Positions 21,001 through 51,000 of a stretch of DNA of 64,000 bases are shown here, in pieces. The first letter of the stretch is position 1. Each line of letters begins with the position of its first letter. Location of the stretch: contig NW_024704749.1 of assembly GCF_018977255.1 (NCBI RefSeq), positions 21,514,001 to 21,578,000 of the forward strand, read 5' to 3'. Source of the DNA: Callorhinchus milii (Eukaryota). The position numbers were made by a program.

Positions 21001-24000
21001 TTGATTGATAAAAACTCTATTACACCTTTATGGATTGTCGGGGCATTATTCGAACTTCGGGCTCGGAAATCCCAACAATTCTATGCCTCTGATATAAAGC
21101 CAAGTATCCCATATGCTTTTTAAAAAAAAACACCTTTATCTACTTGCCCTGCCACCTTCAAAGATTGGCTTATGTGGACCCCTGGCTCTCTATTCCTGCA
21201 CCCCTTTAAGATTGTACCATCTATCTTATATTACCTCTCCTCATTCTTCTTCTCAAAATGCATCACTTTGCATTTAACCTACTATGCGTCTGCCCATTTC
21301 ACCAGTCTGTCCTTTTGCAGTCAGCTACGATCCTCACCGTTTACTACTTTCCTAGCTTTGTATCATCTGCAAACTTGGAAGTTGTACTCCCTATATCCAA
21401 GTCCAGATCGTTTATATCGAACAAAAAGAGCAGCGGTGCTAATACCGACTCCATGAACTCTTCAGCCTCACGTATGTTGTGCAGTAACACCAGCCTCTCT
21501 TCGAGCTCAGAAAACCCTGAGCTTGAGCAGCTGGAGGCACTTCCTACACACGTGTTTGTCCAGGACAAAGTAACACAAAGTGTCCTGGAGTTCCTCCACG
21601 GTACAAAACATGCAATGTGTTTTAGCTGCCCTGCCATATTCCCAGACGTTTTTAATATTATTTATTTAATAGTTATGCACCTCTTCCTCATCGGCATCTA
21701 ATTCCCACTCTCAGCAAATTCCTGCACAGAATTCCACCTCACTCAGTTGCCGCCTCATACTGCTGGGCTCTCGCAAGTTTTCCCCCTTTGTATAGGACTC
21801 ACACACCCAGTTTCAAATGGTCAGCATATTAATTAACCCACAACACCTGGTCTGTGACCAAGTGCCACTTTGATTTGTTTATCTGTTAACTCGAAAAGTT
21901 CTCTCTTCCTCAAGATAGAATTCCTACTCTTTTGCTGAAAGGGTTCTGTCTTATTCTATAGTTTCTAATTTCTCTCTTGCTCAAGAATTCCCACTCTCAC
22001 CAAATTCCTGCACAGAACTCCCACTCTGTTACCTCCTCACGCTGCTGGGCTCTCTGCTCTAATGGCATGAAGTGGCGGATTGTTTACGTCCCTTTGAGCT
22101 GTCATTGAAGCGAGAGTCTTTTATTGCAAAAAGCACAATTTTAAAACAGAAATGTCAGCTGACCCATGTCTGCATTCAAACTTTTTTTAATAAAGTACCA
22201 ATAAGTAACAGTGGCATTTCATTTAAAAATATTTTTTTCTGCATCTTCTTTCTCAAAAATCATTTCTCTATATACAGGAACCAGTATTAAAGTTATTTTT
22301 CCTAAACAAAAATCTGCAATATTCTCGTACATAAAGGAAAGACTATAACACTCTGCCAGATAGGGTCCCCTCATTTAGGGATTACATAATCAATGTGCAT
22401 AGTGGAGAAAACTGTATTTTAACTTCTGCCAATTGATGGTGGGAGATCCTACTTTGTCTCAAAAAATGACAACAGCTTTGATTTGCCAGTCTGACTTGGC
22501 TCCTGGATTCATTCCTGGAGGGTTTTGTACTTTACTATGAAAAGATCCACCTTGCGTGTGTACACCGAACAGTTATGACTTTTCAGTTCAAGTGCCAGTT
22601 ACATCGCAAGTTCTTAAAAGGCAATCCAACAAAGCAACCACCATGCCAAAGATTGTCAAAACCTCAACAAGACATTGCAGGTGACTCGAGCAACAGTAGT
22701 TACTTGGAAGGACCAGTATATCTGCTACAACAGGGCATTGCTATTGCAAGTACAGGCAGTGACAAACCCCAATTTTAAAGGACATTACAGAGCTCTTGCA
22801 CAGAAGACGTTTTCAGTTCCGTTTTCTAGCTGCCGGAGGCCGTGATGATTTTTTACACCGTTTCTTACTTGCTGCTGGGTGTGCTTTGTGGTCCTCATCT
22901 TCCTCATCTTCCTCATCTTCCAAATCACTGTCATCATTATCACTGTTAAAAATGTCACTTAACTGAAATACACGTTTCAGTGGCTTATGAACAGCAGCCT
23001 CTGTGCTGCAATCACTAGAATCTGTAGCTTTTTTTTTCAACTTCTCTTCATACTTTGGACGTATTTTATCATTAAGGAAGTCCACAATTTCTGTGAAAGA
23101 GAATAAAGTTCACAATAAATTGAGATAGGCTTTCAACCAACACATTTTTAATCTTTTTATCATTCAGCAAAACACTAAATCCAATTAATTAACATTTAGG
23201 CAGTACAAAAGCAAGGACGTGAATAAAGATTATAGATGGTCACATTGCCAGTGCATCTATTTTCACCACTCTACACTTTAACACGTGTAAAATCTCCATC
23301 TTCCATGGTTTTTAATTCATGCCATGTGTTAAATTCTAGTTCTGTGCCATTACTGACTGCAGCCTTTACCCGCTTGTGTGTCTACAGCACGCAATGGTAA
23401 GGCTAGCTGCTGTCTTGATATAACTGTTACCTGCCATGGAAGTGAAATGCAGTTACTGTGCTGATTTTCTTTCAGGAACTACTCTAACGCCTGTCCCTTG
23501 CAGTATAACTCGTCCATCATGGTTCATACTCTGCGAGCTACAATACTAACCTCCAAAGGTTTTCCTGTGCCAAGAGGGTACGTGGCGAGCTTTCAACTTG
23601 TAGAACATCGTTTGAACGAATTGAGGAGGCACGTTGCTAGGAAATAATATTGAATAAAACATGTTGTAAGTCATGAAGACACATTTATATTAAAATAAAT
23701 CCACTTCCTATGGGCTGGGGACAGGTGCGCTGCATTTGATCAGGAGTGAGAGATCTTGTTAAGCGTTTACTAGCGTGCAGGTGTCATGCTAATTGTATAT
23801 GCCACTGCTGGCTCTTGTCTTACAGCTGCAGTTACATCCAGTTGTCAATCGATTGGCGGATCGCTTTCCAGGGGTAATAATCTCTCAAAAAAATAATGTG
23901 GTCACTCAATCTACAACTATTTATGGGACACTGCTGTGCGCAATTTGCTGCTGCGTTTCGCCCACAAAATACACATTCAATCCACTTTACAATATATTCT

Positions 24001-48000: not shown

Positions 48001-51000
48001 GAGAAAGAGAGGGAGAGATGAATTAGGAGAGGGAGAGAGGAAAGAGGGTGGGGAGAAGGAGTGAAGGGCAGAGAGAAGGGAACGTCTATAAGGAAATCTA
48101 TACAGTTAAATGTTTTGCTGTGGCACTGTTTTTTGGTGGAAGCTACGGGTTGTCTATGTTAGAAATGTGGAGAGAAGTGTGGAGTGCACATTGTGACAAA
48201 TGGGAAACTAGTGTGAGATTTGCTGATGGTTCTCTCCTGGTGAACATCTCTCTGCCAGGAAAGTGCAGTACAGTGATTTTAAAACAGTGAACACTAAGAT
48301 GGGACCATTGGGTTGAGTCCTGGACGAATTGACCTAAAGTAACCCTGTGCAGGGTGCTCACTTGTCATCTCACCACATGGCACCACAAATATATAGTCAA
48401 TTCACTTTACAGTGTGTTCTGTGAAGCGCTTTGGGACGTCCTCCCGACGTGAAAAGCGCTATATCAAATGCAAGGATTATTATTATTATTATTATTATGG
48501 CACAAGGGGCTGGATGGCATGGACCTGTACTTGGCCTGAATGGGAGAGCCGTGGTAACAAAAAGTTTCTGATGTCTAGTATGGGGAAATAATCTGCATTT
48601 CTGACCCCATAACTGCATTCAGTAGGTTGCCTATTATAATGCTGTAGTATCTATTTAAATAATCCATGACACATAGTAAAAGTGTAGTATGCTTGGAAGA
48701 ACCAGGCAAATTTGGCTCTAAGGTTCCCAAAGTTTCCCACTGTGTTGTAGACTAATCCATACAGAATTAATTGCTATCAACATCTCCATTATTGTAGCAG
48801 GCAAGTAGCAGGATGCTAGGAGACGGACTAGATGGACCTTGGTGTTTTTTTGGTCTAGCAAATCCTATCTTCCTAATTGAACACAGTTCAAAGTGGATTG
48901 GGGGAAACTGCCTGAACTGCGTTATCAGATGTGAATGAACAGCTTTCCCCATCTCTCTGTCTCAAACTAACCGCTGGAACTTCCCTGTCCACATGGTGTG
49001 GCAGGCAAGAAGCGTTGAATGAAATGCTCCCTCCTCCTACCCCCCAGATCATCAATAATGGTTTAATTATTCTCATCGGGGAGGGGCTGAGGCGCGCTCT
49101 TTGCCCCGATGGCTGACGGCAGCAGTTGGGTGGTTGAGCTCGCTCTCCCCCGCTGCTTCACTTTGATGGTGTGGGGAATAAATCCTGCCTCCCTTTTCAT
49201 CCCCAGGGCGAGCGTAAAAATGAGATTAGCACCAAGATTTACCTCTGGCTTCACTTTGTGGAACAGGGCGAGTAAAGGATTGCCTCCTGTTGTCTGACTT
49301 TATCTTTTTAAATTCGAGGATAGATTGTTGGGTTAGGGATTATCCTTTCATGGGCAATAAATCAGCCTGGTTGGTGTCTGTGTCAGAGCCATTCTGTGGA
49401 AAAAAAAGCAGCACAACTAACCGCTAATTCCACTTAAGTCAATACCTGATAGAGTTCGACTAACTGAACATAAATTGGAAAAAAAGTAAGACCTTCATGT
49501 GCTTTATATCTTTGTAACAGAAAGCGAGTGGAAACACAGCCCCCTGTGAAATGGCATGTTTCTCCTCTTCCATCCCCCCCACCCCCCCCCCCCCCCCCCC
49601 CATCCAGTATATTGATAGTGACACATGTAAGAGATGCGGAAAACTTGCAGAGGAATCAATAAGTGCCCCGATCACATCACCTCCCCGCGCACACACTAAT
49701 CATGACAAGATGGTTTTGTCAGTCACTGGCTAACTTGTTCAATATCTGACGTACTCAACAGTTCCCAGAAATAGTAACACTGCACTCTAAAGGGATCGTA
49801 TTTATGGACACAACAAATGAAATAATTGTCAGCAAGGGTCGAGCAGTTGTTTAGAGATTTTGTCGAGGTCTCTCTGTGCCCACGTTCTAATCATTTACCT
49901 TCAGAGTTATATTAAATCAAATCTATATATTTATTAGTACATCTCACTGCCCAAAAGACTCCCTACACATATTCATCTCATCGTTCCGTAATCTTAAATC
50001 CTTTTCATTTCTAGGAATTTTCCTGCAGTGCGTTCTTCTTGAAACACTGTATGGTTGTTTATTCCACCACCCGTGCTGCAAATATGTTTCATAATTCTGT
50101 CACCCTTTTGCTAAAATAATCGCTCTTGTACTTTTTCTACCCCCATCCCCTTTATTTGGAAACAACGACCTTGAGTTGTGACTCGCACCTGATAGGTGAG
50201 GAAAGTGTTTCTCTTGTGTTTGTGTTTCTCAGTGTTTCTCTGCTCAGTCTCTAACCTGAAACACTGGATGTGTTTTTTTGCTGCAAGGCACCCCCTTCGG
50301 TTCTCCTTCTCTCAGCAGACACAGTAAAGTTAGTTTAGTTCAGTAGCAAATCTCGTATCCTACATTAATGGGGCCAATAGGTGGGAACCGACCATGGTTC
50401 CCCAGAAAGCACATGGCCAGTTGCCCACTTTAATAACTGGAAGAGTGGTGTACGGTTCTGGTTCGGCCTCCAGCACTTCCAGCGCCTTGGGACGTCCTCC
50501 CAACGTGAAAGGCTCTATACAAATGTAATTTTGTTGTTGTTGTAGCTAGGCCCCATGACAGCACTGCATCTGCTCTACATTGTGGGACTCTGCTGTCTGC
50601 AATTGGCTGCTGCGTTTCACCCACAAAATATACGTTACAAAATAGTCATTATATTCAGAATAGTATATTCTGTGAAGCACTTTGAGACTTCTCAAAGTCT
50701 TGATAAGGCGTTAAATCAAATGCAAGGAATATTATTGCATGTGTAGCTCGGACAGGGAAGGAGAGACAGGATAGCAGATGTCCATCCAGCAACCGGATGA
50801 TAGGTCTCCTCACAGCCTAGCCAATCAACACAACCCTTTTGTTAACGTGGAGATACCAGGGGTAATAATCCCTTCAAACTTCAAAATAAATAAATAATCA
50901 TTTGGTCACTCAATCCACGACTGTTTGTGTGACGCTGCTGTATGCAATTGGCTGCCATGTTTCGACCACAAAATACACAGTCAATCCACTTTACGATATA

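What the first reader, a model, noticed from the sequence alone, without database searches (positions are those of the whole stretch)
21927..48251. Complex inverted duplication giving two head-to-head TTF1 genes; block order is not a simple mirror
Seen: layout L-X-P-Y-[gap]-X'-U-Y'-Z, with X=21927-30227 (TTF1), P=30228-32178, Y=32179-34611, X'=34637-43174, U=43175-45815 (unique), Y'=45816-48251. A haplotig merely flipped around the gap would read Y'-P'-X'. Instead X' precedes Y', and two junctions lie in contiguous, gap-free sequence (43174/43175 and 48251/48252). The copies also differ by substitutions and a roughly 250-bp indel. Established: TTF1 is normally single-copy in vertebrates, and multi-junction inverted duplications are the signature of template switching (FoSTeS/MMBIR). 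Inference: either a recent complex segmental duplication of the Pol I terminator plus flanking enhancer DNA, a structurally divergent second haplotype, or a chimeric contig.
[Added by the scan's program, not by the reader: the finding's places include an assembly gap (unread letters, written N; its length is only estimated) at 34612 to 34636. Whether the letters on both sides are continuous or in frame is not known: test that first.]
Basis: partly seen in the sequence, partly recalled or inferred. Interest (0 to 1): 0.72.

Follow-up and report, generated by a model that had tools for sequence, protein, structure and literature searches.

The report
Doubled TTF1 locus, probably misassembled
The two mirror-image copies of the TTF1 gene region are really in the sequence, but they sit around an assembly gap that cuts the gene's first coding exon in two, so this is most likely one gene assembled twice and not a true gene duplication.

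Summary
The block layout is confirmed. X 21927-30227 matches X' 43174-34637, and Y 32179-34611 matches Y' 48251-45816. Both pairs are inverted and about 99% identical, and there is a single run of 25 N at 34612-34636.

The window is not human. It carries tRNA-derived SINEs, and its TTF1 exon is 98% identical to the named Callorhinchus milii TTF1.

The main new result concerns the TTF1 N-terminus. Codons 1-25 plus two bases of codon 26 lie on the + strand at 32102-32178, at the very end of P. The third base of codon 26 is 34637, the first base after the gap. Y plus the gap therefore interrupt one exon.

The minus-strand copy X stops at that same base. It then runs into unrelated GC-rich DNA behind an in-frame TAA. 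One breakpoint thus serves three block ends.

As assembled, neither copy is an intact gene. X' also has frameshifts, and 20 of its 23 small indels relative to X are deletions (p=0.0005). That asymmetry is technical, not evolutionary.

Best reading (0.7): a single TTF1 locus, with redundant lower-accuracy pieces (X', Y) and a misoriented piece (P) placed around a gap. A real palindromic duplication is not excluded (about 0.18). Read depth and junction-spanning reads would decide.

The parts
1..21926 (-). L, the left unique flank. It holds a giant minus-strand ORF (4299-8980), a strong CpG island at 18701-19500, and a LINE reverse-transcriptase remnant at 21344-21661. I take the ORF for senataxin (SETX) from recall only.
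   Evidence: ORFs; CpG scan. The SETX name was not confirmed: one search gave 0 Pfam families, one search gave only two unnamed hits that I did not use, and one search scored below 0.8. A short local motif repeated at 21700-21772 and 21986-22054 recurs at 21896-21930, across the L|X junction. This is weak evidence that L|X is native.
21927..30227 (-). X, a TTF1 copy on the minus strand. Coding pieces lie at 22816-23100, 23552-23635, 24099-24167, 24735-24824, 25648-25875, 26153-26284, 26425-26505, 26762-26947 and 29087-30224. Codons 1-26 are missing. An in-frame TAA sits at 30225-30227. One extra A in an A run near 29950 shifts the frame relative to P0001.
   Evidence: tblastn of P0001; sequence; ORFs; Myb domain PF00249 on 26114-26302.
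30228..32178 (+). P, single-copy in the window. CpG-rich patches lie at 30201-30500 and 31101-31400. SINEs lie at 30505-30702(-), 30709-31035(+), 31275-31604(+) and 31723-32007(-). It ends with the true TTF1 N-terminal codons.
32102..32178 (+). e1: TTF1 codons 1-25 plus the first two bases of codon 26. It lies on the + strand, so it is collinear with X' and antiparallel to X. There is no GT donor after it.
   Evidence: It has no second copy in the window (segment P_d: no hit).
32179..34611 (.). Y, the inverted twin of Y'. It begins directly after e1 and ends at the gap. No gene was found in it.
   Evidence: (7 substitutions, 7 indels).
34612..34636 (.). Assembly gap of 25 N. It was not filled or looked up.
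34637..43174 (+). X', a TTF1 copy on the plus strand. Its first base is the third base of codon 26. One-base deletions relative to X break the frame at 35329, 35441 and 39440, and there are more in the K/E-rich stretch 34904-34952. It holds about 283 bp (37044-37326) that X lacks.
43175..45815 (.). U, with no twin in the window. It holds a 40-bp minisatellite at 45197-45739 (13.6 copies) and a SINE-like piece at 45763-45815, next to the point that corresponds to the end of the left contig.
45816..48251 (.). Y', the twin of Y, continuous with U and Z.
48252..64000 (+). Z, the right unique flank, with CFAP77 exons on the + strand at 61186-61530 and 61725-61988.
   Evidence: Pfam PF14825, E=2.4e-5 and 2.2e-14.

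Best explanation
This is one TTF1 locus represented twice by the assembly. The most likely native order is L - X - reverse of P - (unknown link) - U - Y' - Z. That gives one intact minus-strand TTF1, made of X plus the N-terminal codons at the end of P. Sequence pieces ended at one point inside the first coding exon, between bases 2 and 3 of codon 26. Three small pieces were then placed between the two main contigs [L X] and [U Y' Z]. These are P in the wrong orientation, Y (a redundant copy of Y'), and X' (a redundant, lower-accuracy copy of X). Only one of the joins was kept as Ns. The redundant pieces may come from the second haplotype, or from a second, less accurate data type for the same DNA.

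Shown: the block structure, the split exon, the shared breakpoint, the broken reading frames and the one-sided indels. Inferred: how the pieces came to be placed, and the native order.
For: (1) P0001 residues 1-25 map to + strand 32102-32176. The bases CA at 32177-32178 plus T at 34637 make codon 26 (His), and the reading frame runs on into X'. The bases after e1 are not a GT donor. Two elasmobranch TTF1-like proteins also begin with a short stretch followed by H-K-x-K-K at residues 7-19. The two halves therefore belong to one exon, and 2.46 kb of Y plus the gap are inserted in it.

(2) X ends at the homologous base (30227) and continues into unrelated GC-rich DNA, with TAA in frame. One position therefore serves as X end, P end and contig start.

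(3) Both duplicated pairs have one member abutting the gap. A gap between duplicated pairs on one scaffold is listed as a hallmark of false duplication in PMC9516828 (passages read).

(4) 20 of 23 small indels between X and X' are deletions in X', binomial p=0.0005. About half lie outside homopolymers. Neutral divergence of two real copies should be symmetric.

(5) By my own comparison of the sequences, the independent record P0001 agrees with X at 9 of the 10 coding differences I compared. These are A not V, DAK not MQK, E not D, T not N, the K/E-rich stretch read in X's frame, and four frameshift sites. The first K-run is the exception. Yet P0001 carries e1, which is antiparallel to X here. 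So an arrangement of e1 plus X-type sequence exists elsewhere, and this scaffold contradicts it.

(6) As assembled there is no intact TTF1. I know TTF1 as a single-copy gene needed for RNA polymerase I termination (recalled).

(7) The flanks run giant ORF(-), TTF1 X(-), CFAP77(+). This matches the human order SETX(-), TTF1(-), CFAP77(+) as I recall it.
Against: Three novel junctions (30227/30228, 32178/32179, 43174/43175) lie in N-free sequence. They are not at SINE edges. Simple haplotig duplication does not produce such joins, so an extra step that abuts pieces without Ns must be assumed, and I cannot show it.

X' holds 283 bp that X lacks, and the copies differ by about 0.2-0.3% in substitutions outside three clusters. 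X' is therefore an independent sampling, which a real young paralogue would also be.

The excess of differences near block ends is weak: 8 of 38 events for X (p=0.013, partly in a low-complexity coding stretch) and 2 of 10 for Y (p=0.83).

P0001 may come from an earlier version of the same assembly, so it is not fully independent. The SETX name and the human gene order are recalled, not tested. No reads were available.
Confidence: 0.7

Rival explanations
1. There is a real palindromic duplication: L - X - P - X' - U - Y' - Z. An 8.3-kb inverted copy of TTF1, from codon 26 to about 0.9 kb past the stop, lies 1.95 kb from its source. The intact gene is e1 plus X'. Only Y is a misplaced piece, dropped at the repeat boundary where the assembler broke.
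For: This reading needs only one false junction (32178/32179). e1 and X' are collinear on the + strand. Assemblers do break at repeat boundaries, which would explain a contig start at the shared breakpoint. X' carries unique DNA absent from X.
Against: The supposedly intact arm X' is the one with the frameshifts and the one-sided deletions. P0001 is X-type. The local motif crossing 21926/21927 suggests that L|X is the native junction, not X'|U. TTF1 on the + strand would also differ from the recalled human orientation. The presence of Y still has to be an error.
Confidence: 0.18
2. The whole structure is real as assembled: a complex inverted duplication by template switching (FoSTeS/MMBIR), possibly on one haplotype only. 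In that case it disrupts TTF1 on that chromosome.
For: Three sharp junctions lie in N-free sequence and are not at repeat edges.
Against: It leaves no intact TTF1 on this haplotype. Starting from either candidate native order, I could not derive the layout in fewer than about three events (inference). The inner ends of both duplicated blocks coincide with the gap. The indel asymmetry is technical. Junction 32178/32179 shows no clear microhomology with its inferred parent sequences.
Confidence: 0.07
3. The sequenced animal is heterozygous for an inversion of the about 10-kb segment [X + P]. One allele reads L X rev(P) U and the other reads L P X' U. Parts of both alleles were put into one scaffold. 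This is a sub-case of the best explanation.
For: It makes both L|X and X'|U true junctions and keeps TTF1 intact on both alleles, as X+e1 or e1+X' (inference). Substitution divergence of 0.2-0.3% fits allelic difference.
Against: It does not explain 30227/30228 or 32178/32179, or the presence of Y. The predicted L|P-start junction is absent from the window.
Confidence: 0.15

Closest known systems
False (heterotype or homotype) duplications in vertebrate genome assemblies, as in Ko et al. 2022, Genome Biol 23:205 (PMC9516828; abstract and passages read)
   Same: Near-identical copies lie on one scaffold with a gap between the pair. One copy is of lower accuracy. The result is a false gene gain.
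   Different: The copies here are inverted and interleaved with a misoriented unique piece. Three of the joins carry no Ns. The depth and k-mer criteria of that paper could not be applied.
Complex inverted duplications by replication template switching (FoSTeS/MMBIR; recalled, no paper read here)
   Same: There are several breakpoints, inverted segments and a non-mirror order.
   Different: One breakpoint is used three times and coincides with a contig end. Microhomology is not demonstrable. The product would destroy the only TTF1 gene.
Vertebrate TTF1 (RNA polymerase I transcription termination factor, a Myb-domain protein)
   Same: The exons are 98-100% identical to the named C. milii TTF1. 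A Myb domain is present. CFAP77 is the neighbour.
   Different: No complete reading frame exists in either copy as assembled.

Membership tests
TTF1 gene | Myb-like DNA-binding domain | tested here: met
   PF00249 on 26114-26302(-), E=2.3e-8, 34.5 bits against a cut-off of 24.4. The identical exon is in X' at 38816-38947.
TTF1 gene | Close identity to a named TTF1 protein over all coding pieces | tested here: met
   The 309-aa exon is 98% identical to UniRef C. milii TTF1. tblastn shows 8 further pieces at 98-100% in X.
TTF1 gene | Complete open reading frame with a start codon in each of the two copies | tested here: not met
   X has no codons 1-26, has TAA in frame, and has an extra A near 29950. 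X' is separated from e1 by Y plus the gap and has frameshifts at 35329, 35441 and 39440.
False duplication (assembly artefact) | Gap between the duplicated pair on the same scaffold | tested here: met
   The N run 34612-34636 lies between X and X' and between Y and Y'. Y and X' abut it. The criterion is quoted from PMC9516828.
False duplication (assembly artefact) | Half or low read depth, discordant read pairs, single-copy k-mers | not testable with these tools
   No reads are available.
False duplication (assembly artefact) | One copy shows sequencing-type errors | tested here: met
   20 of 23 small indels are deletions in X', p=0.0005. They include 3 or more frameshifts where P0001 agrees with X.
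FoSTeS/MMBIR complex rearrangement | Two or more novel junctions joining inverted segments | tested here: met
   The junctions 30227/30228, 32178/32179 and 43174/43175 are present in the text. Whether they exist in the DNA is untested.
FoSTeS/MMBIR complex rearrangement | Microhomology at the junctions | tested here: inconclusive
   At 32178/32179 the inferred parents share no clear bases. The parents of the other junctions are unknown.
Real recent segmental duplication | Symmetric divergence of the two copies, and breakpoints independent of assembly features | tested here: not met
   The indels are one-sided. The inner ends of both pairs equal the gap edges. The breakpoint inside the exon is shared by three block ends.

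The most novel reading that the evidence does not exclude
The chimaera genome really carries a TTF1 palindrome: 8.3-kb inverted arms around the 1.95-kb promoter-and-N-terminus spacer P. Recombination between the arms could then flip P and decide which arm holds the complete gene. The assembler's trouble around the gap would be a consequence of that palindrome.
Probability: 0.15. Interest if true: 0.5.

Novelty: not a real feature. Interest (0 to 1): 0.15.

Why it matters
If this region is taken at face value, it would be counted as a TTF1 gene gain, or as a template-switch rearrangement of the RNA polymerase I terminator gene, in a cartilaginous fish that is often used as a slowly evolving reference. 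The evidence points instead to a local misassembly. That misassembly doubles the gene, splits its first coding exon and leaves no correct gene model. The region is worth flagging for assembly curation and for anyone counting gene copies. It is not a biological discovery unless read-level data show otherwise.

Tried and rejected
(a) A simple flipped haplotig.

(b) An inverted copy of the whole segment [X P U Y'] inserted at P|U. This explains all the adjacencies, with the gap hiding the reverse of U followed by the reverse of P. I rejected it as the native history because it never joins e1 to the rest of its exon.

(c) SINE-mediated or repeat-edge junctions. The junctions are in unique sequence. 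The 99% match between 30919-31034 and 48383-48498 is only two copies of a young SINE subfamily.

(d) Homology resuming beyond an insertion. A sensitive BLAST of P, U, the start of Z and the end of L found only SINE pieces and the short local motif at 21700-21772.

(e) Excess of differences near block ends as a mark of contig ends. The result was weak: X p=0.013, Y p=0.83.

(f) Naming the left-flank gene. Pfam found no family. The protein search found two unnamed hits, which I did not fetch or use. The Atlas scores were 0.78 or lower. The SETX label therefore stays a recollection.

(g) Listing the other members of the P0001 cluster, to see whether a second C. milii TTF1 model exists.

(h) Joined spliced model. 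Exons were searched one by one, and the joined coding sequence was not built or searched. The named protein P0001 was mapped back on the window instead.

I did not try to establish which assembly or study the window comes from. Paper supplements were not consulted.
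Full report
**Source and scope.** The window is 64,000 bases, 43% G+C, with a single N run of 25 at 34612-34636. 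It is not human. Its dispersed repeats are tRNA-derived SINEs with an (ATT)n tail. Its largest TTF1 exon is 98% identical to the named Callorhinchus milii TTF1 (UniRef, P0001). The next hits are elasmobranch TTF1-like proteins at 25-29% identity. I take the window to come from that species or a very close relative, and I did not try to find out which assembly or study it belongs to.

**The observation.**
- X 21927-30227 is the reverse complement of X' 34637-43174. The match comes in two pieces, at 99.4% and 99.0% identity.
- Y 32179-34611 is the reverse complement of Y' 45816-48251, at 99.4% identity.
- No other repeat in the window exceeds about 330 bp, and most are 77-92% identical, so this is far beyond chance.
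- A base-by-base comparison gives 48 substitutions and 25 indels for X/X', and 7 plus 7 for Y/Y'.
- The '250-bp indel' is about 283 bp of unique DNA in X' (37044-37326), replaced in X by 32 bp of AT-rich repeat.
- The inner end of each pair is a gap edge: Y stops at 34611 and X' starts at 34637. The true inner extents of the duplicated blocks are therefore unknown.

**Genes and flanks.** X carries TTF1 on the minus strand and X' carries it on the plus strand. Nine coding pieces match P0001 at 98-100%, and one of them holds a Myb domain.
- To the right, Z carries CFAP77 exons on the + strand at 61186-61988 (Pfam PF14825).
- To the left, L carries a giant minus-strand ORF (4299-8980) and a strong CpG island at 18701-19500.
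- I take the giant ORF for senataxin from recall. Three attempts to name it with tools failed.
- The order giant ORF(-), TTF1 X(-), CFAP77(+) matches the human order SETX, TTF1, CFAP77 as I recall it.

**The gap test and the key finding.** P0001 begins with 25 residues that map to the + strand at 32102-32176, at the very end of block P.
- The next two bases (32177-32178, CA) together with the first base after the gap (34637, T) form codon 26.
- From there the frame continues straight into the lysine-rich exon of X'.
- No GT follows 32178.
- Two elasmobranch TTF1-like proteins also start with a short stretch followed by H-K-x-K-K at residues 7-19.

The end of P and the start of X' are therefore two halves of one coding exon. 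The 2.46 kb made of Y plus the gap sits inside it. The letters on the two sides of the gap are not continuous with each other.

The minus-strand copy X stops at the homologous base, 30227. It continues into the unrelated GC-rich start of P, with a TAA directly in frame. The N-terminal piece has no second copy in the window. One phosphodiester bond inside an exon is thus the end of X, the end of P and the start of the right-hand contig.

**Integrity of the copies.** Neither copy is a complete gene as assembled.
- X lacks codons 1-26 and has an extra A in an A run near 29950 relative to the frame of P0001.
- X' has one-base deletions at 35329, 35441 and 39440, and several more in the K/E-rich stretch.
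- Of 23 small indels between X and X', 20 are deletions in X' (p=0.0005). About half are outside homopolymers.
- Two real copies diverging neutrally should show no such asymmetry, so X' is a lower-accuracy rendering.
- By my own comparison of the sequences, P0001 agrees with X at 9 of the 10 coding differences I compared. The first K-run is the exception, and there X has two extra A's.
- Yet P0001 carries the N-terminal piece, which in this scaffold is antiparallel to X. So an arrangement joining that piece to X-type sequence exists in another record, and this scaffold contradicts it.

**Which junctions are native.**
- 30227/30228 and 32178/32179 both cut the exon, so they cannot be native.
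- By elimination, Y'|Z (48251/48252) is the native neighbour of that end of Y.
- A short local motif present at 21700-21772 and 21986-22054 recurs at 21896-21930, across 21926/21927. This weakly marks L|X as native, which makes X'|U (43174/43175) the odd junction.
- The simplest single-copy order is therefore L - X - reverse of P - (unknown link) - U - Y' - Z, with one intact minus-strand TTF1.

**Best explanation (0.7).** This is an assembly artefact. Between the two main contigs [L X] and [U Y' Z], three small pieces were placed: P in the wrong orientation, and Y and X' as redundant copies of Y' and X. The redundant copies come from the second haplotype or from less accurate data. Only one join is marked by Ns. 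A gap between duplicated pairs on one scaffold is a listed hallmark of false duplication (PMC9516828, passages read). How the N-free joins were made is inference. As a recollection only, some gap-extension programs leave a short fixed N run after extending both flanks.

**Evidence against the artefact reading.**
- The three novel junctions are sharp, N-free and not at repeat edges.
- X' contains DNA that X lacks.
- The excess of differences near block ends is weak: X 8 of 38 events, p=0.013; Y 2 of 10, p=0.83.
- P0001 may stem from an earlier version of the same assembly.

**Rivals.**
- A real palindrome X-P-X' with only Y misplaced (0.18). It needs just one false junction, but it makes the error-rich arm the functional gene.
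- The whole structure real (0.07). It would leave no intact TTF1 on that chromosome, and I could not derive it in fewer than about three events.
- A heterozygous inversion of [X+P] mixed into one scaffold. This is a sub-case of the artefact reading and explains L|X and X'|U, but not the two exon-cutting junctions.

**Rejected models.** A simple flipped haplotig, an inverted copy of [X P U Y'] inserted into itself, and SINE-mediated joins were all tried and rejected, as set out under Tried and rejected.

**Limits.** There were no reads, no second assembly and no related eukaryotic loci. Exons were searched singly and the joined model was left out. The N run was not filled.

**Verdict.** The interpretation as a duplication giving two TTF1 genes is not supported. 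This is most likely not a real feature, and interest is low unless read-level data show the junctions to be real.

Noticed in passing
window 18701-19500: A strong CpG island (G+C up to 0.75, CpG observed/expected up to 1.06), with CA-rich and (ATT)n runs beside it. It lies upstream of the giant minus-strand ORF and about 3 kb beyond the 3' end of TTF1 copy X. It is probably the promoter of the left-flank gene.
   Followed up: partly
window 45197-45739: A 40-bp minisatellite with 13.6 copies and 89% matches, which reads open in several frames on the minus strand. It sits just beyond the point where the left contig's twin sequence ends, so it is a likely cause of the contig break.
   Followed up: partly
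window 30505-31035, 31275-31604, 48383-48498, 53864-54088, 56250-56554, 60484-60852 and many more: An abundant tRNA-derived SINE family with an (ATT)n tail. Five of its heads pass the Rfam tRNA threshold. Some copies are 97-99% identical to each other (30505-30702, 30838-31035, 48383-48498), which suggests a young, recently active subfamily.
   Followed up: partly
window 23898-24066 vs 41030-41199: Ten substitutions and four indels between X and X' are packed into one SINE copy, against none in the 1.7 kb that follow. This looks like consensus contamination from other SINE copies, or gene conversion.
   Followed up: no
window 216-1309 and 21344-21661: Remnants of LINE reverse transcriptase: a weak RVT_1 match at 216-896, and a FADD-type motif at 21344-21661 on the minus strand (motif name recalled, seen by eye).
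   Followed up: no
window 21700-21772, 21896-21930, 21966-22054: A short motif is repeated three times in direct orientation around the L|X junction. The two long copies are 85% identical over 73 bp.
   Followed up: partly
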